From positions 199,802-263,801 of the forward strand of contig CAIJMI010000005.1 of NCBI GenBank assembly GCA_903821745.1: DNA of 64,000 nt, given 5' to 3'. The translations under genes and the position numbers were made by a program. Shown here one piece after another: positions 39,432 through 54,610 of the stretch. Position 1 is the first letter of the stretch, and every line of letters starts with the position of its first letter. This stretch comes from Candidatus Gottesmanbacteria bacterium (lineage in GTDB: Bacteria > Patescibacteriota > Microgenomatia > UBA10105 > UBA927). The notes under the pieces are model-generated. The model had not been told where the DNA came from. It saw only the letters and a program-made list of their open reading frames with translations, and made no database searches.

Positions 39432-40097
39432 ATGACAACAACACTCGTTATTTGTTGTAAAAACGAAGCCCCATCACTTGCTGCTGTCATCAATAAGGCA
39501 AAGCCGTACGTACATGAAATAATTGTCATCGATGGTCATTCAACCGATGGATCACGCACTATTGCCAAAAATGCAGGAGTAAAAGTATTTGAAGATAATG
39601 GAAAAGGCAAAGGAGCAGCAATACAACTGGGTATACAGAAAGCATCAGGAGACATCATCATATTTATGGATGCAGATGGCTCACATAAAGCGTCTGATAT
39701 CCCAAAACTTACTAAACCAATACATAAAAACAAAGCAGACCTTGTTATTGCATCGCGTGGAATTGGTGGCAGTAACGAACTACACGGGGATTTTGAAAAA
39801 ACATTGCGTCTTATCGGGAGTGCCATCATTACTCAAATAATTAACTGGCGGTACCATGCTCATATTACTGATTCCCAAAATGGATTTCGAGCAATTCGTC
39901 GCTCTGTTGCAAAATCACTGAATCTCCAAGCAAATAGTTTCGCTATCGAACAAGAAATGCTAATGCAAATTTTAAAACGTAATGCAAAAGTTAGTGAAAC
40001 AGGAAGTCATGAATTTGCACGTAAGTATGGAAATTCAAAAATTAATCTTCCAAGAATGTGGTATAAATACTTAATTAATTTAATACAAAATCTATAA
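39432..40097 (+). CDS. GT2 glycosyltransferase (DPM1/ArnC-like polyprenyl-phosphate sugar synthase)
   Basis: VICCKNEAPSL...IIVIDGHSTDGS...IIFMDADGSH, the DxD-containing GT-A fold pattern; 221 aa, a short soluble form. Confidence 0.8.
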   Translation: MTTTLVICCKNEAPSLAAVINKAKPYVHEIIVIDGHSTDGSRTIAKNAGVKVFEDNGKGKGAAIQLGIQKASGDIIIFMDADGSHKASDIPKLTKPIHKNKADLVIASRGIGGSNELHGDFEKTLRLIGSAIITQIINWRYHAHITDSQNGFRAIRRSVAKSLNLQANSFAIEQEMLMQILKRNAKVSETGSHEFARKYGNSKINLPRMWYKYLINLIQNL

Positions 40098-40132: not shown

Positions 40133-41242
40133 TCAATAAAATGCATTATCTTTATTAACAATATTAACTACGATATTATAAAGAGAAAAAGCAATTCTAG
40201 CTTGGGATTCTTGATACAAATGCATTATGTCCATAAACATTGTTTCCTCTACGTTGGCAACGGCTGAAGATAGATCAACAAAGTAAACATTCTTATTACC
40301 CATAGCGTCAACGACTCGTTTCTTCATATCACGAAACCACTCCTGTTCTGTTGACATCACTAATGGTTTTTCTTCATCGGTTAAATACAATTTGTCATAC
40401 AAAATTGGCTGCAATATCGCAATATACTCACTTCCAAACGCATGACTTATTTTGTGGGCTTTTTGTAAATTATCACTGTATACGGAAATAATAGTATTTT
40501 TCCATGATTCTGAACCGTACATAGCCTCATTACGTATTTGTGTGAGAGGAACAAATTGATTCAGATACCATTCAGGAGCAAATCGTTCCGCAAAAAACTG
40601 AACAACCGGTAACTTAGATATAAAAAACTTCCAGATTGACATTCTTTCAGGATAAAGCAATGGACTAACCTCATACATCATATAATCATATGGATAACCT
40701 GGTCTTGGATCATAATATAAAGGGTGATACAAATCGTTTACTCCATCATATTGAATAATAAGATCTGGCTGTAAATTAGAGAGATTTGTTACGATAGTCA
40801 TTAATTCTTGAGAAGACACAGCAGAAATAACCCCAAAATTATACACTCGTACATTATAATATCCTCGTTTATGAAATTCTTCTTCAAGTAAAACTGGTAA
40901 AGACGGATCTCCTATGTATACTGTTGATCCACCCAATATACATATTCTGTATTCATCTACGGGTTTCGGTACAACAGGATATGGACCGCGATATCCTTCT
41001 TGATTATGATCTTCCCAATACGGAAGTCCTTTAAACATAATATATGGGTATGGAATCTTATAGGTATCTGTACGAAAACGTTCCTGTACAGGGTTACGAA
41101 TGCTAAGATACGCACTAAAAATAATGTTGATAATGGAAAAAAATAATATTATAGCGATCACAACTGCACTAATTTTCCCCAAAAGCGCTATCCAATAAGA
41201 TGTTTTTTTCTCTTTAAATAATCGTTTAGGTACGAAAAACAT
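40133..41242 (-). CDS. Membrane-anchored SGNH/GDSL-family hydrolase (paralog 1 of 5)
   Basis: N-terminal TM; block I ILGGSTVYIG, block III QYDGVNDL (GxND), block V DIMHLY (DxxH). Confidence 0.6.
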   Translation of the reverse strand: MFFVPKRLFKEKKTSYWIALLGKISAVVIAIILFFSIINIIFSAYLSIRNPVQERFRTDTYKIPYPYIMFKGLPYWEDHNQEGYRGPYPVVPKPVDEYRICILGGSTVYIGDPSLPVLLEEEFHKRGYYNVRVYNFGVISAVSSQELMTIVTNLSNLQPDLIIQYDGVNDLYHPLYYDPRPGYPYDYMMYEVSPLLYPERMSIWKFFISKLPVVQFFAERFAPEWYLNQFVPLTQIRNEAMYGSESWKNTIISVYSDNLQKAHKISHAFGSEYIAILQPILYDKLYLTDEEKPLVMSTEQEWFRDMKKRVVDAMGNKNVYFVDLSSAVANVEETMFMDIMHLYQESQARIAFSLYNIVVNIVNKDNAFY

Positions 41243-41297
41243 ATTGTATCTACATATATTCTTTTTCTTTAATATTTTATACTATAACATAGAATAT

Positions 41298-42773
41298 ATT
41301 ATGTCATTTACGAGGAGTTCGAGAAAATCACTATTCTCCATTCATACATACGAAAAAGCAATGTTTTGTCTCTGTGTGCTACACATTTTTTTAAGACTAC
41401 CTCTTCGAACTATGATTCCATTTAATGACGGGAATGTGTACTATGCAACAGTTTTTAACATTATCCAGAATAACCTCAATCCATTTATTTTTACAATATC
41501 ATATAAACCACCAGTCATTAGCGAGCTCATGGCTATTATTTTCTCGGTATTCCATCCATCTATCGTCATTGGAAACATAGCAATGTATATCATTTCATCC
41601 GTAACGTTATGGTATATATATCTTCTCGGGAAACGTGTATTTACTCCAGTTGTTGGTTTTTATGCCGCGTTACTATGTTCCTTATTTCCTCTTTTTACTG
41701 CTCAAAGCGTTGTTTTTAACGACGCCGTTATTGTCACAACTGTTGTTCTTGCTACGGTCTATTATTTCTTTTCATCTAATTGGATTGGGTATGGCATTGC
41801 CTGTTCGCTTCTTGTCTTAACAAAAGAACCACTTCTCGCTGTCCCTGTATTGCTCTATATATACTCCGTCATATATACATTTCAAAAATCACATACATCA
41901 TTTCTCACAATACTGATAAAACGAATTCCACTCCTTTTTCCACTTATATTATTTCCGATATGGATGTATATAAATAAACAAACACTCGGTATATATCTGG
42001 ATCCGATAAACCAAAACAAATCGTATCTACATCGTTTTTACGGAGCGCCCATTCAAGAAATCTTAAAATATCTTTTTGTTAAAAATGGCATGTGGTGGAT
42101 ATGGTTAACATTCGGTGTAACACTACTTAAACACTCAAACAGGATAAAAAAACAATGGATCATCATTATGTGGTTCATAACGATTTTTTTGTTCTACGGA
42201 ATATTCTTTTCTCTAAGCGCCTTTAATCCAAGATACATGCTCCCATATTTTCCATATGTTTTCATAAGCTTTTGTGCTGTACTGTTCTTCGCATATTCCA
42301 AAAAATTTTTTCGACTCTTTATACTCCTAACAGTTATTATGTTCCTCGGAATACATATCAATCTCTTTTTCTTCAACGTATCTGATGGCTGGGGAGAAGG
42401 TGATTTACGTATTATTCAAACAACGTCTCTTTATACAAAAACTTTTGAGTATGTCTACGAACATTACCAACATCCTCTCATCGTCACCTATCCTGAAGTG
42501 TATACGTGGAGCGATACTGCATTTGGAAAAACTCCAGGCGCATACAAATATGAATGTTACTTTTTTAATCAAATTAATGATGAGAAAGAAGAAATGCAAC
42601 GCATGTTCACCTATGCAAAAGAAAAAAATGCGTCTCCTATTATCTTTATTCAACCAAGTTACATGGGTGAAGTAAACGAAATAAACGCAATACGAAAATT
42701 GCCTATTAAACGAATTAATAATCCGTGGAATAAATATAACTATCACGACTTATACGAAATTGCAGTACAATAA
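41298..42773 (+). CDS. GT-C fold glycosyltransferase, ArnT/PMT(PMT_2)-like (paralog 1 of 3)
   Basis: Polytopic. First extracytoplasmic loop FNDGNVYYA...NPF...YKPPV resembles the ArnT/PMT DExxYA...KPPL signature; about 12 TMs. Start at the internal Met (41298) to leave a divergent promoter; the ORF begins at 41244. Confidence 0.5.
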   Translation: MMSFTRSSRKSLFSIHTYEKAMFCLCVLHIFLRLPLRTMIPFNDGNVYYATVFNIIQNNLNPFIFTISYKPPVISELMAIIFSVFHPSIVIGNIAMYIISSVTLWYIYLLGKRVFTPVVGFYAALLCSLFPLFTAQSVVFNDAVIVTTVVLATVYYFFSSNWIGYGIACSLLVLTKEPLLAVPVLLYIYSVIYTFQKSHTSFLTILIKRIPLLFPLILFPIWMYINKQTLGIYLDPINQNKSYLHRFYGAPIQEILKYLFVKNGMWWIWLTFGVTLLKHSNRIKKQWIIIMWFITIFLFYGIFFSLSAFNPRYMLPYFPYVFISFCAVLFFAYSKKFFRLFILLTVIMFLGIHINLFFFNVSDGWGEGDLRIIQTTSLYTKTFEYVYEHYQHPLIVTYPEVYTWSDTAFGKTPGAYKYECYFFNQINDEKEEMQRMFTYAKEKNASPIIFIQPSYMGEVNEINAIRKLPIKRINNPWNKYNYHDLYEIAVQ

Positions 42774-43833
42774 ACAAGATATGCAACGATTACTCGCCAG
42801 CGTACTACCTGTTCTCCAATCAAATTTCAAAAGACTTCCCCATCCATATAAATTAACCTTTGCAATAACCTATCGGTGTAACTCACGATGTACCATTTGT
42901 AATATCTGGAAAAAACCGCATTTCCCTGAAATGACGCTTGATAACATCAAAAAATTTTTCACCGCTAATCCTTACTTTCGCTGGGTAAATTTAACAGGAG
43001 GAGAAGTATTTTTACGACCTGATCTTATTGAGATTATCAAGATAATTCTTCATACACAAAAAAATCTATATTTTTTAAACTTTCCAACAAACGGCATCAT
43101 GACAAAACAGATTGTTAAACAATTACAACAAATTCTTAATCTTAATCCACCCCATTTCATTGTATCTATCTCTCTTGACGGTCCCAAAACAACACATGAT
43201 ACGCTTCGTGGAATAACAGGAAACTGGGAAAAGGCAGTAAAAACTTATAAAGAATTAAAGAAACTACGATCCAGTCATTTTGACACCTATTTCGGAATGA
43301 CACTCTCTCATTATAATAATGGACTCATCGAACAAACTTATGAGGAACTAAAAAAAGCCATCCCCTCACTTAAGCGGTCTGATATTCACTTCAATATTGC
43401 CCATCATTCATCTCATTATTATGGAAATACTGCTCAAGACGGAAACGTCAACATAAAAACAATAGAGCATCTTGATGCGTACAACAAAAAAAAGAGCTTT
43501 GTGTTAACAAAAATATCGTTCATAGAATATGTTTACCAACGCCACATAAAACAATATCTCACAACAAAAAAAACACCTCTCCCATGTCTTGCGCTCTCAA
43601 GTTCAGTATTTCTTAACCCCTATGGCATGATTTATCCATGCTCCATGTGGAATATGCCTCTTGCCAATATTCAAGATATTAATTATGATCTCCAAGCGCT
43701 CTGGAATACAAAAAAAACAAAACAGGCAAGAATCCTCATTGCGCGAAAAAAATGTTCAAATTGCTGGACACCATGTGAAGCATATCAAAGCATCTTGGGC
43801 AATATGTTTACATCTGAAGTATGGGAAAAATAA
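42760..43833 (+). CDS. Radical SAM protein with C-terminal SPASM/twitch-like Cys cluster
   Basis: CNSRCTIC (Cx3Cx2C) at residues 40-47 and a C-terminal Cys cluster ...PCLA...YPCS...CSNCWTPCEAY; 357 aa. Confidence 0.8.
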   Translation: MQYNKQDMQRLLASVLPVLQSNFKRLPHPYKLTFAITYRCNSRCTICNIWKKPHFPEMTLDNIKKFFTANPYFRWVNLTGGEVFLRPDLIEIIKIILHTQKNLYFLNFPTNGIMTKQIVKQLQQILNLNPPHFIVSISLDGPKTTHDTLRGITGNWEKAVKTYKELKKLRSSHFDTYFGMTLSHYNNGLIEQTYEELKKAIPSLKRSDIHFNIAHHSSHYYGNTAQDGNVNIKTIEHLDAYNKKKSFVLTKISFIEYVYQRHIKQYLTTKKTPLPCLALSSSVFLNPYGMIYPCSMWNMPLANIQDINYDLQALWNTKKTKQARILIARKKCSNCWTPCEAYQSILGNMFTSEVWEK

Positions 43834-45296
43834 CATTTCCCCGCGTACAACGACTTCTTCTTATCAATCCCTACGCAGGGTATGCACAAGGAACAAATGA
43901 ATCGACTGTATATCCTCCCATCGGACTTTCTTATGTTGCAGCCAGCGCTGAACAATGTGGCGTACACTGTAACATTATTGATGCCGCAGCACTAAAATTA
44001 CCGATAAAATCGTTGTTTGCCACAATTAAAGCATTTGTACCCGATTGTATTGGTATTACGAGTAACATTGTTACCGCTGAAGCAGCAATTCAAACTGGGA
44101 AAGAGATACATGCACGGTTTCCAACAATTCCCCTTATTTTTGGTGGTCCTTATGCAACGGCATATCCTGAATATATCTTAAAACAAACACAAGGCTATCT
44201 TGTTATTCGAGGAGAAGCAGAAGAAACTATCAAGGAACTTCTATCCAGACGCGTTTCTCTTTCATCAATACGTGGTATTTCATATAAAAAGGGACGTAGA
44301 TATATACACACAAATCAACGCCCATTAATTCAGGATATCAACACAATTCCCTTCCCCGCTTACCATTTACTCCCTCCACTATCCGTATATAAATCAAGAA
44401 ATAGAAAAACACCAATAGGCGTCATCCTCTCAAGTCGTGGATGTCCCTATCAATGTATTTATTGCAATGCAAATATTTTTGGAAAACAATTTCGCCCAAG
44501 AAGTGTCGATAATGTATTAAAAGAAATAGATATATTAGTTACTACATATCACATCAAACAACTAGATGTTTTAGACGATAATTTTACATTACTTATTGAG
44601 AGAGCTGAAGCAATTTTTGACGGTATTATTAAAAATAAGTTTAACATTCGTATCAATCTTCAAAACGGCGTACGAGCAGATCGACTTAGCCCACGGCTTA
44701 TTCGAAAAATGAAACAGGCAGGTGTCTACAAAGCCACCATAGGCGTAGAATCAGCCGATCTCCACATACAAAAAACCATAAAAAAAACATTGTCACTTCC
44801 AAAGGTTGTATGGGCAATCAAACAATTTCGCAAATACGATATTATTACTGCGTGCACATTTATCTTCGGCCTACCTGGAGAAACAAAGAAAACCATTGAA
44901 AAAACAATAGCATTTGCTATACGCGCTAACCCACATATGGCAAATTTTTCTGCTCTTGTTCCTTTACCGCAAACAGCAGTATACGAAATGATTCAAAAAA
45001 ATGGAACATTTCTCCGGCCTATCGAGCATGGATTACCAACTGGTTTTATCACAAACACATTATATTTTAAACTTGACGCAATAAATCAAGAATTGATTTC
45101 ATTCGCCATGTCTTCTGCTTTTCGACTTTTTTACTTCAGAATTTCAAAACTTATAGATTTATCCAAAACAATCCGTTCGTGGGGAGAATTTACTTGGAGT
45201 CTTTCTATGATTTACGGAGTGATAAAAAATATTAATATTTTTCCATCAACAAAAATATTTTCGCGTTATTTATTACATGAAAGTGAGATATGCTGA
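43821..45296 (+). CDS. B12-binding (class B) radical SAM protein
   Basis: N-terminal B12-binding Rossmann region (LLINPY...YPPIGLSYVAA...IGITS), then SSRGCPYQCIYC (Cx3Cx2C). 491 aa; overlaps the preceding rSAM gene by 13 nt. Confidence 0.8.
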   Translation: MGKITFPRVQRLLLINPYAGYAQGTNESTVYPPIGLSYVAASAEQCGVHCNIIDAAALKLPIKSLFATIKAFVPDCIGITSNIVTAEAAIQTGKEIHARFPTIPLIFGGPYATAYPEYILKQTQGYLVIRGEAEETIKELLSRRVSLSSIRGISYKKGRRYIHTNQRPLIQDINTIPFPAYHLLPPLSVYKSRNRKTPIGVILSSRGCPYQCIYCNANIFGKQFRPRSVDNVLKEIDILVTTYHIKQLDVLDDNFTLLIERAEAIFDGIIKNKFNIRINLQNGVRADRLSPRLIRKMKQAGVYKATIGVESADLHIQKTIKKTLSLPKVVWAIKQFRKYDIITACTFIFGLPGETKKTIEKTIAFAIRANPHMANFSALVPLPQTAVYEMIQKNGTFLRPIEHGLPTGFITNTLYFKLDAINQELISFAMSSAFRLFYFRISKLIDLSKTIRSWGEFTWSLSMIYGVIKNINIFPSTKIFSRYLLHESEIC

Positions 45297-46300
45297 ATTT
45301 CTGAAACTAGTATTTGTGCTATACGGTTGTGGCCTGCTTCAGCGACGTGGCACTCATCGACTAACTCATTAGAATATGAATCTAAAAACAACTGTTCTAA
45401 ATCAACAAATGGAACCTGTTCTTTCTGAGCGACAACCCGTAATAAGGCATTATATTTCGGAACAGATGCACGCCAATTATCTGACGCTGTTTGAGAAACG
45501 TCACCGTGTAAGCGGGTTAGTAATAACACTGACGTTCCCTGAGACCGAGCAATTCGGATAAACTCCTCTATATTATGTACATAGTCTGAGTAAGAAACCC
45601 TTGATACGTTACCTTGCGTTTTTCGAAACACAAGACTCACCTTATCAGAATAATAAAATATCACTTGAAACAAACGAGATATTGACAATGGCGTAATAAT
45701 GCCGGAAAGAAATGAATGGAACTCGTTATCTGGAATTCCCATAGCCGGAGCTGCATCATTCCAACCAAAAGATATAATAATTAGGGATGGATGAAATACA
45801 AATACATCTTGTTTAAATTTCTCCAGCCCTTGATACGATGAGTATCCCATCACTCCCATATTTAAAACACGAAACGGTGTGGATTGATCTTTTAAATAGG
45901 AAGCGAGTACTTCTGGCCATGGAGTATCAACATATCTGCCAGGAATAATCCCTAACGTATTCGAATCTCCATACGTGAGGATAGTACATCCTGAAACGGT
46001 TGCTATATTTTCTTGTATCGATGATCCGCGAATACCCAACTCATTAAATACTCCCCAATTCTTTTTTGGTTTCCAAAATAACACAGGGTCATATTCTAAA
46101 TCAGAGTCATTTTCAGAAAGTACAAAATCCAAACGCAGTTCTTCTTTTTCAACACGCTCTTTTTTTAGTTCTATCGGTTTGTAGTATGAAAGAATATGAA
46201 ACGCGGTAAGTATACGAGCAATACATTCAAAACCAACAAAAAGCAAAATGAAAAAACAAACCCCAAGAATAACAGATAGTATTTTTTCTTTATATGTCAT
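45266..46300 (-). CDS. Membrane-anchored SGNH/GDSL-family hydrolase (paralog 2 of 5)
   Basis: N-terminal TM; block I ILTYGDSNTLG, block III FGWNDAA, block V DECHVAEAGH. Confidence 0.7.
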   Translation of the reverse strand: MTYKEKILSVILGVCFFILLFVGFECIARILTAFHILSYYKPIELKKERVEKEELRLDFVLSENDSDLEYDPVLFWKPKKNWGVFNELGIRGSSIQENIATVSGCTILTYGDSNTLGIIPGRYVDTPWPEVLASYLKDQSTPFRVLNMGVMGYSSYQGLEKFKQDVFVFHPSLIIISFGWNDAAPAMGIPDNEFHSFLSGIITPLSISRLFQVIFYYSDKVSLVFRKTQGNVSRVSYSDYVHNIEEFIRIARSQGTSVLLLTRLHGDVSQTASDNWRASVPKYNALLRVVAQKEQVPFVDLEQLFLDSYSNELVDECHVAEAGHNRIAQILVSEIQHISLSCNK

Positions 46301-46348: not shown

Positions 46349-47677
46349 ATGATATCAAAGAAAAAAAATATAATCTCATTTCTTCACAATATACCTGTAC
46401 GCCTCTTGATTCTTTCTCTTATACTTGGAATAGCAGCATTTACTCCTTTGTTTGCTTATACCTATCCTAATATAGATACCATAACTGACGTTTTTAATGC
46501 AGGAAAAACTATTCCTGACATAGCAATATTTTTTGATTTTACAGGAAGATATAGGGCTTCATGGACGTTATTTGCAACAGTGTTGAACGCAATTTTTTCC
46601 TATCACATTCGTTGGTATTTTTTACTGTATGGTGTCGCACTTGGCGTAACATTGTGGACTATGTTCATGCTTGTGTACCAAAAAAATAAGAGAGTACAAC
46701 ATGAACTACTTATTATTCCAGTATTGATGCTCTTAAACAACATCACTGTAGCAACGTATTGGAGATTAGGTGCATGTGAATCAATATTTACATTGATCCT
46801 AATATGGAGTGTTCTATGCATACAGCAAAAACGGTATACGTTGTGCATTCTATCTCTCCTGTCATTAATTCCATTAAAAGAAATATCAATTATCGTTCTT
46901 CTTATAACTAGTGTTTATATGTTTGTCATAAAAAAATATAGATATGCACTTATTTTATTTATAAGTTCCGCTATGTATGGATTATTCATAAAACATTTCA
47001 TTGCAGAAAGTCTTACCGAAGCAACAACGCCATATTTTCTCACGTTTACATTTACCAGTACTAGGCTTATTGAAATGTTTCATACGTGGGGATTCAAAAT
47101 ACCGTTTGTTTTTATTTTAAGTGGCATCAACACGTTACTTCTCATCATTCATCAAATTGAATTTAAACGGGTAGCGAATATACCACTTTATCTCCTTATA
47201 TTAAGCGTCGGATTACTTTCTCCATATCTCTTTCTTGCGTACACAGAAGAATATTATCTTTTTCCCTCCTATACATGTTCCATACTATGTTTTACTTACT
47301 TAAGTACAACGACACTACAACGTAAAAAACATATACAGTTAGGAATTCTCGTTGGAAGTTGTATATTATTTTTCTACAGCCAATCACATAAAGCATTCAT
47401 TCAACAAGCTTCTTTAATGCATCAAGCGTATATTCAACATACCAAATTAATTGAACGTATGTTTCAATATCCATACTATTTCTATCAACGACAATACAAT
47501 AAAACAGTTACAGAAGATGCATTTACTTCTTGGGTAAATACACAAAACGGTACAAATCAAGATAATACCTCTTTACGAGCAATTGTACATGAATCCCCTA
47601 CACAATCTGAATATAATGGAGCAATGTGGTACGGACCAGATAACGCGTGGGGTATTGAATACATCACCAATAATTAG
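46349..47677 (+). CDS. Polytopic membrane protein, unknown function (possibly polymerase/ligase-like)
   Basis: 442 aa with more than 10 predicted TM helices and a soluble C-terminal tail; no motif recognised. Confidence 0.5.
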   Translation: MISKKKNIISFLHNIPVRLLILSLILGIAAFTPLFAYTYPNIDTITDVFNAGKTIPDIAIFFDFTGRYRASWTLFATVLNAIFSYHIRWYFLLYGVALGVTLWTMFMLVYQKNKRVQHELLIIPVLMLLNNITVATYWRLGACESIFTLILIWSVLCIQQKRYTLCILSLLSLIPLKEISIIVLLITSVYMFVIKKYRYALILFISSAMYGLFIKHFIAESLTEATTPYFLTFTFTSTRLIEMFHTWGFKIPFVFILSGINTLLLIIHQIEFKRVANIPLYLLILSVGLLSPYLFLAYTEEYYLFPSYTCSILCFTYLSTTTLQRKKHIQLGILVGSCILFFYSQSHKAFIQQASLMHQAYIQHTKLIERMFQYPYYFYQRQYNKTVTEDAFTSWVNTQNGTNQDNTSLRAIVHESPTQSEYNGAMWYGPDNAWGIEYITNN

Positions 47678-49371
47678 CAAATATAGTTTTTTTTATGATT
47701 CTTCCTTGTTTTCTTAAAAAATAACACTACTTCATAAATCATACACAAAGAAAATATACCCATCAGTGGATACACCGGGGAAACATATAAAAGTGCATCC
47801 AACTCAAAACAAATAGATTCAATATAACTTATTAAGGTTATCAAAAACATCATGCTCATACCCATCCCAATGATAAACAAATCATATTTATTCATATTTT
47901 TTGTTACAATTTTATGTCTTATTGTAACGATGAAACACAAAATTCCTATACTAAAAAGAACACATCCAATCATCCTAAATAAACGTTGAAACATTCCAAT
48001 AACGACGGTGTGAATTCCTGTTGACTGTATAAGACTACCTTCTGTTTCTTGATCACTGTGATACTTGGTTGTTACTATATGTCCCGTTACAGATTTGGTT
48101 AAGTCAATGTCAGCGATATCACCAGTGCTTTCGTTTGTCAATGTGCCAATTGTATCTAATGATGGAATCCTAAATACTAATCTTGTCACCGACTGTAAAA
48201 ACAACACACTATATTCCATATGAAATTGAGGAATTAAATCGAACGGCCATGCAGTGCATTCTAAAGATTTGTTTTTACATGCATATACTAGTTCTTTATG
48301 AATTTCTTGAAAGAACGTATTTGCGATTTTGTAGGAAGGATAATATCCAAGCCTAAAAGCTGCATCACGTATATCAAATATTAAATTTGCACCCGATATT
48401 TCGTTCGTAGCGATAGTAAAACTGCTTTTGTGTGGAGAAGTTCTATACGTCTCATTTATTAGTTCTTCAACAATTTTAAAATGAGGACTCACGAGCGCCG
48501 CCTTATGCAATGTCAATTTTGATATCGTAGCGTGCCTGATGGGAGTCTCTTGCTTTATTCGAATCAAATCACCGTATACTTTTGTGTATGCTGATTGTTT
48601 TAATTCATTTATGACAAACGTACCATAGTAAAATTTGTTTACACAACTAACAATACACACAAACAATATACCAACAAAATATCCAAATAACACTGTACGG
48701 AAAAACACTGGATGTAAATGTTTACGAAATATATATGTAGAGAGACAATGTCCTATTGGAACAAGATACAAAGGGATAAACCACATAAATTCTTCACGAG
48801 TCAAATAGAACATTGCGCTGAATATACCGAATCCTAATGCCCAAAGTGCATGCTTAAAGCTCCGTTGTTTTTCACTGGCCAACAGTCCGAATATACATGC
48901 AACCGTTCCGATTGTTAAAGACGAGTAAAAATGATGTCGTGTAACACGTTCTGCGATTTGATAAGAAAAAGGGTTAAAAAGAACAAAAAGAAAAACGATA
49001 AATGAACATGCTGTATTATATTTTTTCTTTAACGCAAAAAACAATAAACACGTAGCAAAAATATACAACACTTGTTGACTTTGTAATAAAGGAATGTGAC
49101 TAAAATTAGAAAAGGCTATAAACATTGGATACATTGGTCCTTTTGCCAACGTCATTTCGCTATACTTCCCTAACCATTCTCCATGTATCAATGCATTCGC
49201 CAATTTAATAAACAACATGTCATCAAACCATGAACCACCAACTGCAATTAACATCTGAGTAGAACTCAACCAATAACGAAACAGTATTACACTACCAAAC
49301 AACAATAGAAATAGTATTTTCTTGTACTTTCTTAAAAAGAAGGAGCAATTATGTTTCATACCCTTCCACAT
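47674..49371 (-). CDS. GT-C fold glycosyltransferase, ArnT/PMT-like (paralog 2 of 3)
   Basis: 565 aa. Loop 1 WFDDMLFIKLANALIHGEWLGKY...TLAKGPMYP (DD-x-x-F...GEW...KGP) matches the ArnT DExRYAE...GDW...EKPP architecture. Clearly homologous to the 54629-56302 ORF. Confidence 0.55.
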   Translation of the reverse strand: MWKGMKHNCSFFLRKYKKILFLLLFGSVILFRYWLSSTQMLIAVGGSWFDDMLFIKLANALIHGEWLGKYSEMTLAKGPMYPMFIAFSNFSHIPLLQSQQVLYIFATCLLFFALKKKYNTACSFIVFLFVLFNPFSYQIAERVTRHHFYSSLTIGTVACIFGLLASEKQRSFKHALWALGFGIFSAMFYLTREEFMWFIPLYLVPIGHCLSTYIFRKHLHPVFFRTVLFGYFVGILFVCIVSCVNKFYYGTFVINELKQSAYTKVYGDLIRIKQETPIRHATISKLTLHKAALVSPHFKIVEELINETYRTSPHKSSFTIATNEISGANLIFDIRDAAFRLGYYPSYKIANTFFQEIHKELVYACKNKSLECTAWPFDLIPQFHMEYSVLFLQSVTRLVFRIPSLDTIGTLTNESTGDIADIDLTKSVTGHIVTTKYHSDQETEGSLIQSTGIHTVVIGMFQRLFRMIGCVLFSIGILCFIVTIRHKIVTKNMNKYDLFIIGMGMSMMFLITLISYIESICFELDALLYVSPVYPLMGIFSLCMIYEVVLFFKKTRKNHKKNYIC

Positions 49372-49658: not shown

Positions 49659-51143
<1,485 letters not shown>

Positions 51144-51254: not shown

Positions 51255-51394
51255 TCATACCCAAAAACACGAAGCGAATTGGCTTACTTTCTCATTGCAA
51301 ATGTCAATTATACGGGAAGGGGTAATCTGCGTCAATCCCCAATGTATTTATGGCTAAATTTACAAACGGAAGCATATACGATACACTAAATACT

Positions 51395-51547
51395 ATGTTT
51401 CAAACCATGAAGCAATTACTCATACTTGCTATCCATTCGAAAAAAATTTGGATTATTCCCATTATCCTCTTTCTCATTATTATCGCCCTTCTTATTATCA
51501 GCGCGCAAATAAGCCCCCTGCCTGTCTTCCTCTACCCGATTTTATGA
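51395..51547 (+). CDS. Small hydrophobic single-TM protein (about 50 aa)
   Basis: MFQTMKQLLILAIHSKKIWIIPIILFLIIIALLIISAQ... Its TGA stop overlaps the ATG of the next small ORF (ATGA coupling). Confidence 0.35.
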   Translation: MFQTMKQLLILAIHSKKIWIIPIILFLIIIALLIISAQISPLPVFLYPIL

Positions 51548-51733: not shown

Positions 51734-53431
51734 ATGATCATTCTTGGAATATCAGCGTTTTATCACGACAGCGCAGCAGCCCTTATTGTCAATGGAAAAG
51801 TTGTGGCCGCACTTGAAGAAGAACGGTTCACGAGAATTAAACATGATAATCAATTCCCTATCAATGCAATAACGCGTCTGCTTCAAATAACAAACTACAC
51901 CATTGATGACGTAGACGTGATTGCGTATTATGAAAAACCGCTCTTAAAATTTGAGCGGCTGCTTGAAACGTTTGTAACGACCTATCCATATGCCCTCCGA
52001 CCGTTTCTCAAATCCATTCCTGACTGGTTGGGATCAAAAATTACCGTTGAACATATCATACGAAAAAAATTGCACTTCAAAAAGGAAATTATGTTTGTTC
52101 CCCATCATCTTTCCCATGCTGCATCATCCTTTTTTACGTCCCCGTTTACCCATGCGGCAATCCTCACTATAGACGGTGTTGGTGAATATGAAACAACAGG
52201 ACTTTGGTCTGCAAAAAACAATTCCCTCACTCACCTTGCAGCAATCAATTTCCCCCATTCTATTGGCCTTTTGTATTCGACATTCACAGCATTTCTCGGA
52301 TTTAAAATCAATGAAGATGAATATAAAGTCATGGGACTGGCTGCGTATGGAAAACCGACGTATGAAGATAAAATACGCCAACTCATCGACATAAAACCCG
52401 ATGGCAGTTTTTATCTCAATACAGCATATTTCGGATTTGTAACATCATTTTGCATGTGGAATAAAAAATTTGAATCACTGTTTGGTACCCCACGAAAGTC
52501 ACACGAAGTGGTCAAAAAACGCCACAAAGACCTTGCTGCAAGTCTCCAAAAGATAACAGAAGAAATCCTGTTTGCCATGATCAACCATCTCGCAAACATA
52601 ACAAAAGAAAAAAATCTTTGTATGAGTGGCGGTGTGGCACTCAATGCACTTGCAAACGGAAAACTCTATAAAAACACGCCATTCAGAAGAATTCATATTT
52701 TAGGGAGCGCGAGTGATAGTGGAACAGCAATCGGCGCAGCGCTCTATGTCTACTATAATTTTTTTGGATCGCCGATCAGTCGTCACGAACCACTTGCATC
52801 ACTTGCGCTTGGGACAAGTCCAAGTGATGAGGAAGTCGAACGTGTGCTTTCACAATATTCAACACTCACCTATCAAAAAATTGCAGATGAACAAACACTC
52901 ATCAAAAAAGCAGCAACACTGCTCGCACAGCATAAAATAATCGGATGGTTTCAAGGACCAATGGAATTTGGGCCACGTGCACTTGGCAACAGATCCATTG
53001 TAGCTGCAACCAATCCTCGAAGGATGAAAACGAAAATGAATATTATCAAACATCGGGAGCAATTTCGGCCGTTTGCGGGATCAGCGCTCCAGGAGACGAT
53101 TCATGAATATTTCGAAGTGCCACAAAACAAACATGCGTCGCCTTTTATGAATTTTTGCTTCAACGTAAAAAAACGCAAACAAGAAGCGCTTGCGGCAATT
53201 GTCCATCAGGATGCATCGTGTCGCATACAGACGGTATCACAGGCAAACGGAAGATATTACCGTCTTATTCAGGCATACGCAAAAAAAACGCATATTGATT
53301 GCATCATGAACACGAGTTTTAATCTTCAAGGCGAACCCATTGTTGAAACTCCAAGACAAGCAATTGAAGATTTTCTGAAAACACCGATGGATTATCTCAT
53401 CATTAATGATAATTTCATTTCGAAGCGCTGA
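51734..53431 (+). CDS. O-carbamoyltransferase (NodU/CmcH/TobZ family)
   Basis: N-terminal Kae1/YgjD-like domain MIILGISAFYHDSAAALIVNGKVVAALEEERFTRIKHD, HHLSHAASSFF, and a C-terminal YrdC-like carbamoyltransferase domain; 565 aa. Confidence 0.85.
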   Translation: MIILGISAFYHDSAAALIVNGKVVAALEEERFTRIKHDNQFPINAITRLLQITNYTIDDVDVIAYYEKPLLKFERLLETFVTTYPYALRPFLKSIPDWLGSKITVEHIIRKKLHFKKEIMFVPHHLSHAASSFFTSPFTHAAILTIDGVGEYETTGLWSAKNNSLTHLAAINFPHSIGLLYSTFTAFLGFKINEDEYKVMGLAAYGKPTYEDKIRQLIDIKPDGSFYLNTAYFGFVTSFCMWNKKFESLFGTPRKSHEVVKKRHKDLAASLQKITEEILFAMINHLANITKEKNLCMSGGVALNALANGKLYKNTPFRRIHILGSASDSGTAIGAALYVYYNFFGSPISRHEPLASLALGTSPSDEEVERVLSQYSTLTYQKIADEQTLIKKAATLLAQHKIIGWFQGPMEFGPRALGNRSIVAATNPRRMKTKMNIIKHREQFRPFAGSALQETIHEYFEVPQNKHASPFMNFCFNVKKRKQEALAAIVHQDASCRIQTVSQANGRYYRLIQAYAKKTHIDCIMNTSFNLQGEPIVETPRQAIEDFLKTPMDYLIINDNFISKR

Positions 53432-53434
53432 ACT

Positions 53435-54610
53435 ATGATCAAACAGGTTTTATACAGTATCATAGGCATGTGTATTGTTTTTGTACTCTCTGAACTTTTT
53501 CTTGGAGAAGCTAAAAAATTTTCTCCAAAATTACTTTTTTTTACAAAAAATCCATATCAGCAAAGCCGGTATGTGACCAATATTGACTGGCAAGGATTAT
53601 GGACATTGTCTAACTGCCCTACTCCACCAGAATTTGAATTATATGGATTTGTTTTAAATTCTAAAGGATTCAGGACTCCTGAAACTCCCTACCAAAAACC
53701 ATCAGATACGAAACGGTTAGTCCTACTTGGAGATTCTCAAGCTGTTGGACCAATTCCGTATAATCAATTATTTCTTAACCTATTAGAAAAAAACATTAGG
53801 GCAGAGTATCCAAAAAAATTTCAAGCTATTAATCTCGCATTGCCTTGCATAGGACCCCCCATTGAAGAGATACTGCTTTCTTTAGAAGGAATTCGATATC
53901 AGCCAGACATTATTGTACTTGCATTTTATGTAGGAAACGATTTTTTGGACGCAAATTTAGATATTGAACGGTACGCCAGTGAAAAAAATAAACAACCACA
54001 TATCCTCCCTTTTATATTCTATCAATCAAAACTCATATCGTTAACGCGAAATTTGTATTACACGTTTCGTTTTGGTCGAAAATCTATGATGACGAAGCAA
54101 ACTAAATCATCCCCTTCTTATGGCACGATGGGAATCGATGATTATTCGTCTTACAACCCTCATGAACCAACATTTCCATTGGAGGAATTTTTAGCTTTGG
54201 AAATGGACAAATCATCCATTCTATTACCACATAGCGACGTATACGCTTCATTACCGCAAATTCAGCAAAATATTAGCCATATGAAAGAATTAACTGAAAA
54301 AGCACGGGCACATTTTTTAGTTCTTATTATTCCAGAAGAAATGCAAGTAAATAGAGATCTATTGCATACAATAGCGTTGAAACAAAATATTCCAGTTGAT
54401 TCGTTTGATGTAGAATTGCCACAACGCGTGCTCAAGCAGTATTTCGACCAAAATCATATCAACTATATTGATCTATTGGAAATGTGGAAATCAGATACCT
54501 CAGCAATGCAGTATTTCCAACCGCAAGATACCCATTTAAACACCTTAGGTAACCAATCGGTTGCTCGTATTCTTTTTCCAGAAATAATAAAATTACTAAA
54601 CGAACAATAA
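53435..54610 (+). CDS. Membrane-anchored SGNH/GDSL-family hydrolase (paralog 3 of 5)
   Basis: N-terminal TM; LVLLGDSQAVGP (block I), YVGNDFLD (block III), QDTHLNTLGN (block V). Confidence 0.65.
   Translation: MIKQVLYSIIGMCIVFVLSELFLGEAKKFSPKLLFFTKNPYQQSRYVTNIDWQGLWTLSNCPTPPEFELYGFVLNSKGFRTPETPYQKPSDTKRLVLLGDSQAVGPIPYNQLFLNLLEKNIRAEYPKKFQAINLALPCIGPPIEEILLSLEGIRYQPDIIVLAFYVGNDFLDANLDIERYASEKNKQPHILPFIFYQSKLISLTRNLYYTFRFGRKSMMTKQTKSSPSYGTMGIDDYSSYNPHEPTFPLEEFLALEMDKSSILLPHSDVYASLPQIQQNISHMKELTEKARAHFLVLIIPEEMQVNRDLLHTIALKQNIPVDSFDVELPQRVLKQYFDQNHINYIDLLEMWKSDTSAMQYFQPQDTHLNTLGNQSVARILFPEIIKLLNEQ

What the first reader, a model, noticed from the sequence alone, without database searches (positions are those of the whole stretch)
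42760..45296. Adjacent overlapping radical-SAM pair (SPASM-type followed by B12-binding class B) with no visible peptide precursor, inside the glycan block
The 42760 gene has Cx3Cx2C at residues 40-47 and a C-terminal multi-Cys cluster typical of SPASM/twitch auxiliary Fe-S domains. The 43821 gene overlaps it by 13 nt and has an N-terminal cobalamin-binding domain plus Cx3Cx2C. SPASM enzymes usually act on peptides (RiPPs, anSME), yet no small precursor ORF lies nearby. Class B rSAMs methylate unactivated carbons in sugars (GenK, Fom3) or lipids (HpnP), or form C-C bonds in membrane-spanning lipids. The context suggests tailoring of a glycan or lipid rather than a peptide.
Basis: partly seen in the sequence, partly recalled or inferred. 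Interest (0 to 1): 0.62.

Follow-up and report, generated by a model that had tools for sequence, protein, structure and literature searches.

The report
Radical-SAM enzymes tailoring lipid-carried surface sugars
Two adjacent iron-sulfur "radical SAM" enzymes in this small-genome bacterium do not modify peptides; they belong to two widespread uncharacterised families that sit beside the enzymes that load a sugar onto a lipid carrier and transfer it to the cell surface, so they most likely edit that sugar.

Summary
The window has a 350-aa radical SAM (rSAM) enzyme with a SPASM-type C-terminus (42781-43833; the TTG at 42760 is probably not the start). It overlaps a 491-aa B12-domain rSAM enzyme (43821-45296) by 13 nt. 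There is no room for a precursor peptide. Neither protein reaches any curated family cutoff.

The SPASM-type enzyme keeps only five C-terminal cysteines, not seven, so it probably holds one auxiliary cluster (twitch-like). Its family comprises about 2,000 clusters at 50% identity and occurs in 499 species genomes, bacterial and archaeal.

In 80 genomes, a Dpm1/AglJ-like GT2 lies within 5 kb in 46 and a GT-C transferase in 48. An O-carbamoyltransferase is there in 17 and a B12-rSAM in only 16. One natural protein fuses this rSAM to the GT2. The B12 family shows the same GT2/GT-C linkage on its own, so the pair is facultative.

Best reading: both enzymes tailor a sugar that travels the polyprenyl-phosphate/GT-C route to the cell surface. 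This would be a radical-SAM variant of known three-component glycosylation systems. The substrate and the chemistry are inferred, not shown.

The parts
39432..40097 (+). Small soluble GT2, a Dpm1/AglJ/PpgS-like polyprenyl-phosphate sugar synthase (221 aa)
   Evidence: Pfam Glycos_transf_2 97.8 bits. Best NCBIfam hits are AglJ 126.9 and PpgS 87, both below cutoff. Best solved relative is P. furiosus Dol-P-Man synthase 5mlz, 1.2e-14. No TM segment. It is 44% identical to the GT2 half of the rSAM::GT2 fusion P0284.
40133..41242 (-). Membrane-anchored SGNH/GDSL-like protein (369 aa), weak match
   Evidence: Pfam Lipase_GDSL_2 E 0.0055, below cutoff. It groups with the other SGNH-like paralogs in the iterated HMM. 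One N-terminal TM segment.
41301..42773 (+). GT-C glycosyltransferase (PMT_2/ArnT-like), first gene of the three-gene operon
   Evidence: Pfam PMT_2 37.7 bits against cutoff 26.1. Nine TM-like segments. Start at 41301 as called on identical contigs; the longest ORF begins at TTG 41244.
42781..43833 (+). Radical SAM enzyme with a five-Cys SPASM/twitch-type C-terminal domain (350 aa; longest ORF from TTG 42760)
   Evidence: AF2 model pLDDT 93.4. No close solved structure, TM at most 0.61. Family of 2,029 clusters at E<=1e-30.
43821..45296 (+). Radical SAM enzyme with an N-terminal B12-binding-type Rossmann domain (491 aa), overlapping the previous gene by 13 nt
   Evidence: AF2 model pLDDT 91.7. 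Best superposition is AprD4, TM 0.73-0.80.
45266..46300 (-). Membrane-anchored SGNH/GDSL hydrolase or acyltransferase (344 aa), convergent with the operon
   Evidence: Pfam Lipase_GDSL_2 67.2 bits. One N-terminal TM segment. The same position is conserved in L003, L010 and L093.
46349..47677 (+). 8-TM membrane protein with no family match (442 aa); candidate flippase or further transferase
   Evidence: No Pfam or NCBIfam hit. Eight TM-like segments. Role not established.
47674..49371 (-). Multi-TM protein with a large loop domain (565 aa), paralog of 54629-56302
   Evidence: 28% identity, E 8e-44 to 54629-56302. No Pfam family.
51350..51547 (+). Small single-TM DUF5989 protein (65 aa) upstream of the carbamoyltransferase
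   Evidence: Pfam DUF5989 29.6 bits against cutoff 27. Same arrangement in L003.
51734..53431 (+). O-carbamoyltransferase (NodU/NovN/TobZ family, 565 aa)
   Evidence: Pfam Carbam_trans_N 283.9 and Carbam_trans_C 211 bits. PDB NovN 2.8e-91, GdmN, TobZ. Within 5 kb of the SPASM-type rSAM in 17 of 80 genomes.
53435..54610 (+). Membrane-anchored SGNH-like (AlgX-like) protein (391 aa), weak match
   Evidence: Iterated SGNH HMM 290 bits. Pfam ALGX E 0.0015, below cutoff. One N-terminal TM segment.
54629..56302 (+). Multi-TM protein (557 aa), paralog of 47674-49371
56340..58312 (-). Two tandem membrane-anchored SGNH/GDSL-like genes (56340-57323 and 57320-58312)
   Evidence: Pfam Lipase_GDSL_2 E 6e-4 (below cutoff) and 2.7e-9 (38.2 bits against cutoff 32.9). 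One N-terminal TM segment each.
58931..60334 (+). Second B12-domain radical SAM enzyme of a different subfamily (467 aa); membership in the system is uncertain
   Evidence: Pfam B12-binding plus Radical_SAM. Only 21% identical to 43821-45296. Best NCBIfam hit TIGR04013, 106.8 bits against cutoff 251.

Best explanation
The two genes encode soluble, cytoplasmic radical SAM enzymes that tailor a sugar on its way to the cell surface by the polyprenyl-phosphate/GT-C route.

Proposed pathway:
1. The small GT2 (39432-40097) transfers a hexose or HexNAc from a nucleotide sugar to polyprenyl phosphate at the inner face of the membrane.
2. The SPASM/twitch-type enzyme abstracts a hydrogen atom from an unactivated sugar carbon. 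It uses its single auxiliary Fe-S cluster, and possibly the fifth conserved Cys, to finish an oxidation, epimerisation or deoxygenation/rearrangement.
3. Where present, the B12-domain enzyme adds a second radical edit. This would be C-methylation if it really uses cobalamin. Otherwise it would be an AprD4-like dehydration or an HpnJ-like ring rearrangement.
4. The NovN/TobZ-type enzyme O-carbamoylates the sugar.
5. The carrier is flipped across the membrane.
6. The GT-C enzyme, encoded just upstream in the same tight operon, transfers the edited sugar to an extracytoplasmic acceptor (a surface protein or wall polymer).
7. The membrane-anchored SGNH proteins add or remove acyl groups outside the cell.

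Shown: domain content; lack of any curated family; operon structure; the cross-domain genomic linkage of each rSAM family to the GT2 and GT-C; the rSAM::GT2 fusion; absence of a precursor peptide.

Inferred: the substrate (lipid-linked rather than nucleotide-linked sugar), the chemistry of each enzyme, cobalamin use, the order of steps, and the acceptor.
For: Domains and motifs.

No curated family is reached. The SPASM-type enzyme's best hit is PTO1314, 58.9 bits against a cutoff of 306. The B12 type scores HpnJ 161 against 577 and BchE 160 against 481.

Tight operon GT-C / rSAM / rSAM, with a 7-nt gap and a 13-nt overlap.

Census around 80 species-level homologs of the SPASM-type gene, within 5 kb: GT-C 48, GT2 46, SPASM paralog 27, carbamoyltransferase 17, B12-rSAM 16. 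Directly adjacent: GT2 26, GT-C 24. GT2 and GT-C density is about 10-fold higher within 1 kb than at 5-10 kb in the same loci.

Independent census around 80 B12-family homologs: GT2 44 (32 adjacent), GT-C 35, SPASM type 13. Among the 32 loci with at least 3 kb on both flanks, 23 have the GT2 and 23 a GT-C.

The gene order is shuffled between lineages while the gene set is kept, in both bacteria and archaea.

Rosetta-stone fusion P0284: an rSAM of this family joined to a GT2 that is 44% identical to the window's GT2. It is a continuous ORF in two metagenome samples.

The GT2's nearest solved relative is Dol-P-Man synthase. The carbamoyltransferase is nearest to sugar and natural-product O-carbamoyltransferases.

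Topology fits: GT2, both rSAMs and the carbamoyltransferase are predicted soluble; the GT-C has 9 TM segments; the SGNH proteins each have one anchor.

Structural neighbours include sugar-editing rSAMs: BlsE, DesII, BtrN and AbmM for gene 1 and AprD4 for gene 2.

Precedent for rSAMs acting on lipid-linked sugars: HpnJ and Cds (PMC13459092). MoeK5 acts in moenomycin biosynthesis (PMC9204698).
Against: No biochemical or genetic data exist for either family.

Nothing tested here separates action on the polyprenyl-P-sugar from action on the nucleotide sugar before the GT2 step.

Structural similarity to every solved enzyme is low: TM 0.55-0.61 for gene 1. Its top hits by E-value include peptide-modifying SPASM enzymes (SkfB, anSME, CteB, SuiB).

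No flippase was recognised in the window.

About 40% of homolog loci show no GT2 or no GT-C within 5 kb, partly because contigs are short and partly for real. In diderm lineages a GT9 (heptosyltransferase-family) gene is often the direct neighbour, which does not require a polyprenyl carrier.

The fusion is a single rare cluster.

Organisms of this kind generally cannot make cobalamin (general knowledge), which makes a true B12-dependent methylation less certain.
Confidence: 0.6

Rival explanations
1. The enzymes edit a nucleotide sugar in the cytoplasm (as DesII and viperin act on nucleotide-linked substrates). The neighbouring GT2, or in other lineages GT9, then uses the unusual donor. The glycan context is right, but the substrate is not lipid-linked.
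For: Structural neighbours of gene 1 include the nucleotide- and nucleoside-binding twitch or rSAM enzymes MoaA, viperin, BlsE and DesII. GT9, which as I recall uses a nucleotide sugar, is the direct neighbour in 17 loci. Adjacency to a GT2 or fusion with it fits a donor-producing enzyme as well as a product-modifying one.
Against: The most constant partners are the GT2 together with a GT-C, which is the signature of a lipid-carrier route, and most GT9 loci also carry a GT-C. The known precedents nearest to the B12 type by HMM score or sequence-network grouping (HpnJ, MoeK5) act on lipid-anchored sugars (the MoeK5 substrate is from memory). No nucleotidyltransferase or sugar-nucleotide dehydratase recurs next to the rSAM.
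Confidence: 0.25
2. The enzymes modify a lipid rather than a sugar: either the polyprenyl carrier itself or a membrane lipid. Candidate chemistries are methylation, cyclisation or C-C coupling, as in HpnP/HpnR, GrsA, Tes/GDGT-MAS or the ladderane enzyme.
For: The B12 type has below-cutoff hits to a lipid-biosynthesis B12-rSAM (TIGR04072, 107 bits against 360) and to HpnR (81 against 650). GDGT-MAS appears among the weak fold matches of gene 1, TM 0.42. The substrates would sit at the membrane, as the GT2 and GT-C partners do.
Against: All lipid-family scores are far below cutoff. Lipid synthesis genes do not recur nearby; the partners are glycosyltransferases and a sugar-type O-carbamoyltransferase. 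The families are common in CPR and DPANN organisms, which largely lack their own lipid synthesis (general knowledge).
Confidence: 0.07
3. The SPASM-type enzyme is a peptide (RiPP) or protein maturase such as a sactisynthase or anSME. Its precursor or target is encoded elsewhere, and the B12 enzyme methylates the same peptide.
For: Pfam SPASM domain hit. The only PDB sequence hit is SkfB, 1e-8. The top Foldseek hits include SkfB, anSME, CteB and SuiB. Below-cutoff NCBIfam hits to AlbA, PapB and WgkB.
Against: There is no intergenic space and no small Cys/Gly-rich ORF. No protease, transporter or precursor family recurs beside 80 homologs; only 2 of 103 neighbours are Peptidase_C39_2. Only five C-terminal Cys are conserved instead of seven. 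All RiPP equivalog scores are at most 51 bits against cutoffs of 300-850. The conserved partners are glycosyltransferases, and one family member is fused to a GT2.
Confidence: 0.04

Closest known systems
Three-component polyprenyl-phosphate sugar / GT-C glycosylation systems with auxiliary tailoring enzymes (GtrA/B/C; ArnC-ArnD-ArnE/F-ArnT; PpgS with a GT-C; the pentofuranose systems of Kelly et al. 2024, PMC11127046)
   Same: A small GT2-type polyprenyl-P sugar synthase and a GT-C transferase are encoded together. Accessory enzymes diversify the carried sugar, as the epimerases do in PMC11127046. The split between cytoplasmic and extracytoplasmic steps matches the predicted topology.
   Different: The accessory enzymes here are radical SAM proteins plus an O-carbamoyltransferase. 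I found no described system that uses these. No flippase gene was recognised. The acceptor is unknown. The system occurs in CPR bacteria and DPANN archaea as well as in diderm bacteria.
HpnI / HpnK / HpnJ in hopanoid head-group synthesis (a GT2, a deacetylase and a B12-domain rSAM)
   Same: A glycosyltransferase attaches a sugar to a lipid and a B12-domain rSAM then rearranges that lipid-linked sugar (PMC13459092 and PMC9204698). HpnJ is the best NCBIfam match of gene 2.
   Different: The score is 161 bits against a cutoff of 577, so gene 2 is not an HpnJ ortholog. No hopanoid genes appeared among the window genes scanned. The lipid here would be a polyprenyl-P carrier and the sugar is passed on by a GT-C.
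AprD4 (aminoglycoside 3'-deoxygenation; an rSAM 1,2-diol dehydratase with a B12-like domain)
   Same: Best structural superposition of the gene-2 model: TMq 0.73-0.74, TMt 0.79-0.80, rmsd 4.6-4.7 A. Same domain order. The substrate is a sugar.
   Different: 17% identity; the NCBIfam AprD4 model scores 62 bits against a cutoff of 500. AprD4 acts on a soluble pseudodisaccharide in an antibiotic pathway.
Cobalamin-dependent rSAM sugar C-methyltransferases (GenK, Fms7, MoeK5)
   Same: Domain architecture. MoeK5 belongs to a pathway (moenomycin) in which, as I recall, a lipid-phosphate-linked sugar is both C-methylated and O-carbamoylated (by MoeM5). The window has the same pairing of enzyme types.
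   Different: No sequences of these enzymes were available for direct comparison. Cobalamin binding is untested. They work in actinomycete antibiotic pathways, not in a cell-surface GT-C pathway.
Twitch-domain rSAM enzymes acting on sugars or cyclitols (BtrN, BlsE)
   Same: An rSAM core followed by a shortened SPASM-like domain. The conserved pattern C-x17-C ... C-x2-C fits one auxiliary cluster (definition of twitch from PMC9012708). BlsE gives the best TM score for gene 1, 0.61/0.65.
   Different: 14-16% identity and rmsd 6-9 A. Gene 1 has an extra invariant Cys in the family-specific motif CWTPCEAYQ. The partners are GT2 and GT-C rather than antibiotic genes.
SPASM-domain peptide maturases (SkfB, AlbA, anSME, CteB, SuiB)
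   Same: Pfam SPASM hit; best E-values in the sequence and fold searches.
   Different: Five Cys rather than seven, no precursor, no RiPP neighbours, and glycosyltransferase partners.

Membership tests
Radical SAM superfamily (PF04055) | CxxxCxxC motif for the SAM-binding [4Fe-4S] cluster, within a partial TIM barrel | tested here: met
   Gene 1 has C40/C44/C47 in the 357-aa numbering (C33/C37/C40 from the ATG), invariant in 32 sequences. Gene 2 has C208/C212/C215, invariant in 33 sequences. Pfam scores are 57.5 and 78.7 bits against a cutoff of 29.5.
SPASM domain (PF13186 / TIGR04085) | HMM match above the gathering score | tested here: met
   32.1 bits against a cutoff of 21.5, covering profile positions 1-67 of 67.
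SPASM domain (canonical, two auxiliary clusters) | Seven-Cys motif Cx9-15Gx4C ... Cx2Cx5Cx3C ... C that ligates two [4Fe-4S] clusters (established knowledge: Haft and Basu 2011; Grell et al. 2015) | tested here: not met
   Only five invariant Cys: C269-x12-G-x4-C287 and C325-x2-C328-x3-C332. The Cx5C cysteine and the distal Cys are absent across the family.
Twitch subclass (BtrN or MoaA type) | A truncated SPASM domain binding a single auxiliary cluster (PMC9012708) | tested here: inconclusive
   The number and spacing of the Cys fit one cluster plus one spare Cys. The number of clusters cannot be read from sequence, and fold matches to BtrN, MoaA and BlsE are only TM 0.42-0.61.
RiPP rSAM-SPASM maturases (AlbA, SkfB, PapB, WgkB, DynA and others) | Equivalog-level HMM score, and a precursor peptide gene nearby | tested here: not met
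   Scores are 37-51 bits against cutoffs of 300-850. No small ORF lies in any gap. No recurrent peptide, protease or transporter neighbour appears in 80 loci.
Anaerobic sulfatase-maturating enzyme (anSME) | Family-level sequence match, a full SPASM domain and a sulfatase partner | tested here: not met
   Not among the top NCBIfam hits. Fold TM 0.56-0.60 at 15-17% identity. Five Cys only. No sulfatase among the window genes scanned.
Class B (B12-binding domain) radical SAM enzymes | N-terminal B12-binding Rossmann domain (PF02310) followed by the rSAM core | tested here: met
   PF02310 67.3 bits at residues 30-140, then PF04055 at residues 204-366. The fold matches TsrM, CysS, TokK, MgmA, OxsB and AprD4.
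Class B (B12-binding domain) radical SAM enzymes | Actual binding and use of cobalamin | not testable with these tools
   The best structural match, AprD4, has the same domain but does not use cobalamin (from memory). There is no diagnostic sequence motif.
HpnJ (TIGR03471) | Equivalog score and a hopanoid (hpn/shc) gene context | tested here: not met
   161.4 bits against a cutoff of 577.6. No hopanoid genes among the window genes scanned.
BchE (TIGR02026) | Equivalog score and a bacteriochlorophyll context | tested here: not met
   160.2 bits against a cutoff of 481.
Lipid-modifying rSAMs (HpnR, ladderane-type TIGR04072, GDGT-MAS/Tes) | Family-level match | tested here: not met
   HpnR 81 against 650 and TIGR04072 107 against 360. 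GDGT-MAS fold TM 0.42 for gene 1.
Housekeeping rSAMs (MiaB/RimO, RlmN, QueE) | Family-level match | tested here: not met
   MiaB/RimO TIGR00089 29.8 against 251; RimO 25 against 357. RlmN and QueE are absent from the listed top hits.
Three-component polyprenyl-P sugar / GT-C glycosylation system | A GT2-type polyprenyl-phosphate sugar synthase | tested here: inconclusive
   Homology to Dol-P-Man synthase (1.2e-14) and to AglJ and PpgS below cutoff. Activity and sugar identity are untested.
Three-component polyprenyl-P sugar / GT-C glycosylation system | A GT-C fold transferase encoded with the synthase | tested here: met
   PMT_2 37.7 bits against a cutoff of 26.1, with 9 TM segments, in the same operon as the rSAMs. 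A GT-C lies within 5 kb in 48 of 80 and 35 of 80 homolog loci.
Three-component polyprenyl-P sugar / GT-C glycosylation system | A dedicated flippase (GtrA, MATE or ArnE/F type) | tested here: not met
   No such Pfam family in the window genes scanned or among recurrent neighbours. The 8-TM protein at 46349-47677 is an untested candidate.

The most novel reading that the evidence does not exclude
Two large, unnamed radical SAM families, present in both bacteria and archaea, form a previously unrecognised class of tailoring enzymes. They would perform C-H chemistry directly on polyprenyl-phosphate-linked sugars before GT-C transfer. The products, for example C-branched or C-methylated, epimerised, deoxygenated or ring-contracted (carbocyclic) and carbamoylated sugars, would end up on the surfaces of CPR and DPANN cells and on the envelopes of many diderm bacteria.
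Probability: 0.4. Interest if true: 0.75.

Novelty: new variant of a known kind. Interest (0 to 1): 0.6.

Why it matters
If the model is right, it adds radical chemistry to the known ways of diversifying lipid-carried sugar donors. It would also give a first functional context to two families that are now annotated only as 'radical SAM protein'. The SPASM type has about 2,000 clusters at 50% identity. The B12 type gave 3,256 homolog clusters at 90% identity among the 8,000 candidates scored.

It would point to unusual surface sugars in CPR bacteria and DPANN archaea. Their cell envelopes, and so their contacts with hosts, are almost unknown chemically.

It also corrects a common annotation reflex. 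A Pfam SPASM hit should not be read as a RiPP maturase when the partners are a Dpm1-like GT2 and a GT-C.

The system is small (GT2, rSAM, GT-C) and occurs in a cultured Geobacter, so it can be tested.

Tried and rejected
- RiPP or peptide maturase reading: rejected. There is no precursor space, no RiPP neighbours, only five Cys, and scores far below cutoff.
- Housekeeping rSAM (MiaB/RimO and others): rejected.
- Membrane-lipid enzymes (HpnR, ladderane type, GDGT-MAS): no support.
- Obligate 'pair' idea: rejected. L003 has the same gene frame without the B12 gene, and the B12 gene lies within 5 kb in only 16 of 80 loci.
- First tblastn census: it under-detected GT-C proteins (8 of 80), so iterated HMMs replaced it. 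My first script also read only 37 of the 80 loci and was redone.
- GlmS, which lies upstream in the window and in L003, is not a conserved partner elsewhere.
- The second putative fusion, P0495 (rSAM plus GT1), rests only on 'faint' Pfam hits in a transposase-rich region, so it was not used.
- The promoter/terminator scan found fewer promoter-like sites than shuffled sequence gives, so it is uninformative.
- Literature searches for any description of rSAM with GT2/GT-C, with GT9/LPS, in CPR/DPANN, or of PTO1314/TIGR03961 found nothing relevant.
- Two papers could not be read: Grell et al. 2015 and Zeng et al. 2018.

Full report
**1. The observation**

Gene 1: the longest ORF is 42760-43833 (357 aa, TTG start). 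It carries C40-x3-C44-x2-C47 and matches Pfam Radical_SAM (57.5 bits) and SPASM (32.1 bits against a cutoff of 21.5).

Gene 2: 43821-45296 (491 aa) has a B12-binding domain (67.3 bits, residues 30-140) followed by a radical SAM core (78.7 bits). Its cluster motif is C208-x3-C212-x2-C215.

The two genes overlap by 13 nt. Contigs from other samples that encode an identical B12 protein show the same arrangement. On those contigs gene 1 is called from the ATG that corresponds to 42781 (350 aa), and the upstream GT-C gene from 41301. An alignment of 32 homologs agrees with the ATG start. The operon therefore reads GT-C, a 7-nt gap, rSAM, a 13-nt overlap, rSAM.

No ORF of 20 aa or more lies in an intergenic gap between 39.4 and 46.4 kb. 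Taking the longest ORFs, the gaps are 35, 1, 0 and 48 nt. The statement 'no visible precursor' is correct.

**2. Family assignment**

Neither protein reaches a curated NCBIfam cutoff.

| Protein | Model | Bits | Cutoff |
|---|---|---|---|
| Gene 1 | PTO1314 family (best hit) | 58.9 | 306 |
| Gene 1 | RiPP maturase equivalogs | 37-51 | 300-850 |
| Gene 2 | HpnJ | 161 | 577 |
| Gene 2 | BchE | 160 | 481 |
| Gene 2 | Ladderane-type lipid enzyme (TIGR04072) | 107 | 360 |
| Gene 2 | HpnR | 81 | 650 |
| Gene 2 | AprD4 | 62 | 500 |
| Gene 2 | MiaB/RimO | 30 | 251 |

By sequence, the only solved relative of gene 1 is SkfB (1e-8). For gene 2 the best is MgmA/QCMT (PDB 9CCB, 4.8e-13), followed by TokK, CysS, AprD4 and OxsB.

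**3. The C-terminal domain of gene 1**

In 32 homologs sharing 42-80% identity with the window protein, the invariant cysteines are the three of the SAM cluster plus only five more. These are C269-x12-G-x4-C287 and C325-x2-C328-x3-C332, the latter in the family-specific motif CWTPCEAYQ.

A canonical SPASM domain has seven cysteines and binds two auxiliary clusters. A 'twitch' domain is a shortened SPASM domain that binds one (PMC9012708; the seven-Cys rule is established knowledge). Five cysteines fit one auxiliary cluster plus a spare Cys. The spare Cys could ligate a substrate or donate a hydrogen atom, as in the rSAM epimerases (from memory). This is inference.

The AlphaFold model is confident (pLDDT 93.4) but has no close solved neighbour. 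Its best matches are SkfB, BlsE (best TM, 0.61/0.65), anSME, MoaA, CteB, SuiB, EpeE, DesII, viperin, BtrN and AbmM, all at 12-19% identity. Peptide-modifying and sugar- or nucleotide-modifying enzymes are mixed in this list, so the fold alone does not decide the substrate.

**4. Gene 2 structure**

The model is confident (pLDDT 91.7). It superposes best on AprD4, a sugar 1,2-diol dehydratase with a B12-like domain (TMq 0.73-0.74, TMt 0.79-0.80, rmsd 4.6-4.7 A). The cobalamin-dependent enzymes CysS, OxsB, TokK, TsrM and MgmA follow at TM 0.63-0.70.

Reviews list HpnJ and BchE, the two best HMM matches, as non-methylases. They place MoeK5, Fom3 and HpnJ together in sequence networks (PMC9204698; PMC12931638). 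'Class B methyltransferase' is therefore one of at least three possible chemistries.

**5. Genomic context in the window**

The region from 39.4 to 58.3 kb is a surface-glycan block. It contains:
- A small soluble GT2. Its best solved relative is Pyrococcus Dol-P-Man synthase (1.2e-14), and its best NCBIfam hits are AglJ and PpgS.
- The GT-C/PMT_2 gene.
- The two rSAM genes.
- Five SGNH/GDSL-like paralogs, each with one N-terminal membrane anchor. Two match Pfam above the cutoff; the other three are weak matches grouped by the iterated HMM.
- An 8-TM protein.
- Two paralogous multi-TM proteins (28% identity).
- A DUF5989 mini-protein.
- An O-carbamoyltransferase closest to NovN, GdmN and TobZ (2.8e-91).

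A 16S rRNA gene interrupts the block. The GT2, both rSAMs and the carbamoyltransferase are predicted soluble, and the GT-C has nine TM segments.

**6. Comparative evidence**

This is the core of the argument.

The gene-1 family is large. A profile search finds 2,029 clusters (at 50% identity) with E<=1e-30. Among one-genome-per-species representatives, 499 encode a relative. They span Patescibacteria, Omnitrophota, Planctomycetota, Nitrospirota, Acidobacteriota, Ignavibacteria, a cultured Geobacter sp. AOG1, and DPANN and Altiarchaeota archaea.

I built iterated HMMs for the window's protein families and scanned the best 80 of these loci.

| Family | Within 5 kb of the gene-1 homolog | Directly adjacent (gap up to 300 bp) |
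|---|---|---|
| GT-C | 48 | 24 |
| Small GT2 | 46 | 26 |
| Second SPASM-type paralog | 27 | 10 |
| Carbamoyltransferase | 17 | 2 |
| B12-rSAM | 16 | 5 |

As an internal control I compared densities by distance within the same loci.

| Family | Hits per 10 kb within 1 kb | Hits per 10 kb at 5-10 kb |
|---|---|---|
| GT2 | 1.97 | 0.18-0.19 |
| GT-C | 1.71 | 0.04-0.19 |

The B12-rSAM density is 0.39-0.45 per 10 kb within 2.5 kb of the gene, against 0.09-0.16 at 5-10 kb.

Among 103 otherwise unassigned close neighbours, the only recurrent Pfam family is GT9, the heptosyltransferase family (17 members). It is mostly the gene directly upstream in diderm lineages whose loci usually also carry a GT-C. 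No peptide-related family recurs.

Individual loci show the same gene set in different orders:
- L003, Microgenomates: GT2, GT-C, rSAM, SGNH, with no B12 gene.
- L005, Altiarchaeota: the carbamoyltransferase lies next to the rSAM, with a GT-C and a GT2 nearby.
- L006, an archaeon with MCM and TBP genes: GT2, GT2, rSAM, GT-C, GT-C, carbamoyltransferase.

I then ran the census from the other side. Around 80 metagenomic homologs of gene 2:
- The GT2 is within 5 kb in 44 (adjacent in 32).
- A GT-C is within 5 kb in 35.
- A further B12 paralog is within 5 kb in 18.
- The SPASM type is within 5 kb in 13.

Of the 32 loci with at least 3 kb on both flanks, 23 have the GT2 and 23 a GT-C (examples in L008 and L009).

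Each rSAM family is thus tied to the GT2/GT-C module on its own, and the two co-occur only in a minority of loci. Where they do co-occur the order varies: SPASM-B12 in L010, L022, L041, L053, L078 and L104; B12-GT2-SPASM-GT-C in L014 and L099; SPASM-GT-C-B12 in L112. This argues for functional linkage rather than inherited synteny.

**7. Rosetta-stone fusion**

P0284 (595 aa) is one polypeptide. Its N-terminal part belongs to the gene-1 family (382 bits to the family profile, with the CWTPC motif). Its C-terminal part is a GT2 domain 44% identical to the window's GT2 over the GT2's full length (E 7e-62).

It is a continuous ORF on contigs from two different metagenome samples. It is rare: no second fusion cluster appeared among the top hits. 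A second candidate, P0495, rests on faint hits and was set aside.

**8. Explanation**

In established systems, a Dpm1-like GT2 paired with a GT-C means that a sugar is loaded on polyprenyl phosphate in the cytoplasm, flipped, and transferred outside. Examples are GtrB/GtrC, ArnC/ArnT, PpgS with a GT-C, AglJ/AglD with AglS, and the pentofuranose systems of PMC11127046. Accessory enzymes edit the carried sugar in several of them.

I therefore propose that both rSAM enzymes, together with the O-carbamoyltransferase, edit the sugar of this pathway. Precedents for rSAM chemistry on lipid-anchored sugars exist: HpnJ and calditol synthase Cds (PMC13459092). From memory, MoeK5 together with the carbamoyltransferase MoeM5 acts on the lipid-phosphate-linked sugar of moenomycin.

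I favour the lipid-linked stage over the nucleotide-sugar stage, but no data here separate them. I give the overall glycan-tailoring reading about 0.8, and the lipid-linked version stated as the best explanation 0.6 including its uncertainties. The exact chemistry is open: oxidation, epimerisation or deoxygenation for gene 1; methylation, dehydration or rearrangement for gene 2.

**9. Rivals**

- Nucleotide-sugar editing (0.25) is the serious rival. The GT9 neighbours and the fold matches to nucleotide-binding enzymes favour it.
- Lipid-tail chemistry (0.07) lacks support.
- Peptide maturation (0.04) also lacks support. Its only basis is the generic SPASM resemblance.

**10. Novelty**

I found no paper describing radical SAM enzymes in GT2/GT-C systems, and no curated family for either protein. 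The library does not cover most subscription journals, so this absence is not proof.

I rate the finding a new variant of a known kind: a three-component-type glycosylation system with radical SAM tailoring. Interest is 0.6. It is not shocking for a specialist, but it is a clear, broad and testable functional context for two large unnamed families, and a window on CPR and DPANN surface chemistry.

**11. Organism**

The closest named homologs are from Microgenomates and other Patescibacteria. The window has nucleoside-salvage genes and an isolated 16S gene. It is probably a CPR bacterium, but this was not tested directly.

Noticed in passing
window 49659-51145 (- strand): A complete bacterial 16S rRNA gene (1347 bits) sits inside the glycan gene block. 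No 23S or 5S gene, and no spacer tRNA, lies anywhere in the 64-kb window, so the rRNA genes are unlinked.
   Followed up: partly
window 58931-60334 (+ strand): A second B12-domain radical SAM gene (467 aa), only 21% identical to the first. Its best NCBIfam hit is TIGR04013 (106.8 bits against a cutoff of 251). It lies next to a SpoU methylase gene and just beyond the SGNH genes. Extra B12-rSAM paralogs are also common in related loci (18 of 80).
   Followed up: partly
window 40133-41242, 45266-46300, 53435-54610, 56340-57323, 57320-58312: Five SGNH/GDSL-like paralogs in 18 kb, each with a single N-terminal membrane anchor. This suggests extensive extracytoplasmic O-acylation or de-acylation of the glycan. 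Three of the five are weak Pfam matches only.
   Followed up: partly
window 47674-49371 (-) and 54629-56302 (+); also 46349-47677 (+): Two paralogous multi-TM proteins (28% identity, E 8e-44) with a large loop domain, and an 8-TM protein, all without any Pfam or NCBIfam family. They may be further GT-C-like transferases, a polymerase or the missing flippase.
   Followed up: partly
window 51350-51547 (+) and 51448-51732 (+): A DUF5989 mini-protein (65 aa, one TM segment) and a second small membrane ORF lie directly upstream of the carbamoyltransferase. The same trio occurs in the Microgenomates genome L003 (16093-18128). The function of DUF5989 is unknown.
   Followed up: partly
window 40000-50000: G+C falls to 0.32-0.37 in the glycan block, against about 0.40-0.43 on either side. 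This is typical of variable or horizontally exchanged surface-polysaccharide islands.
   Followed up: no
L016, L021, L026, L031, L043, L047, L050, L054, L064, L065, L068, L071, L074, L083 (gene directly upstream of the rSAM homolog): In Nitrospirota, Planctomycetota, Geobacter and Omnitrophota, the gene directly upstream of the SPASM-type rSAM appears to be a GT9 (heptosyltransferase-family) gene: 17 of the 103 unassigned neighbours scanned match GT9, and these loci share a ~400-aa upstream ORF (only L016 confirmed individually). This points to an LPS-core-related version of the system.
   Followed up: partly
L170 6001-7785 and L171 3053-4840: A natural single-polypeptide fusion of the SPASM-type rSAM with the Dpm1-like GT2 (P0284, 595 aa), present in two metagenome samples. 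It would be a convenient construct for biochemical work.
   Followed up: yes
window 33976-37815 and 38553-39152: A nucleotide-salvage cluster lies just upstream: deoxynucleoside kinase, a thymidylate-kinase/nucleoside 2-deoxyribosyltransferase fusion, dCTP deaminase, and GlmS. Its synteny is conserved with the Microgenomates genome L003, which fits a reduced, CPR-type metabolism.
   Followed up: no
L028-L030, L036, L038, L040, L044, L086 (Planctomycetota): A second SPASM-type rSAM paralog lies about 2.8-3.0 kb upstream of the focal gene. In L028, L038 and L040 a GT-C gene lies between the two; in the other loci the intervening sequence matched none of the families scanned. This planctomycete-specific layout was not analysed further.
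   Followed up: no
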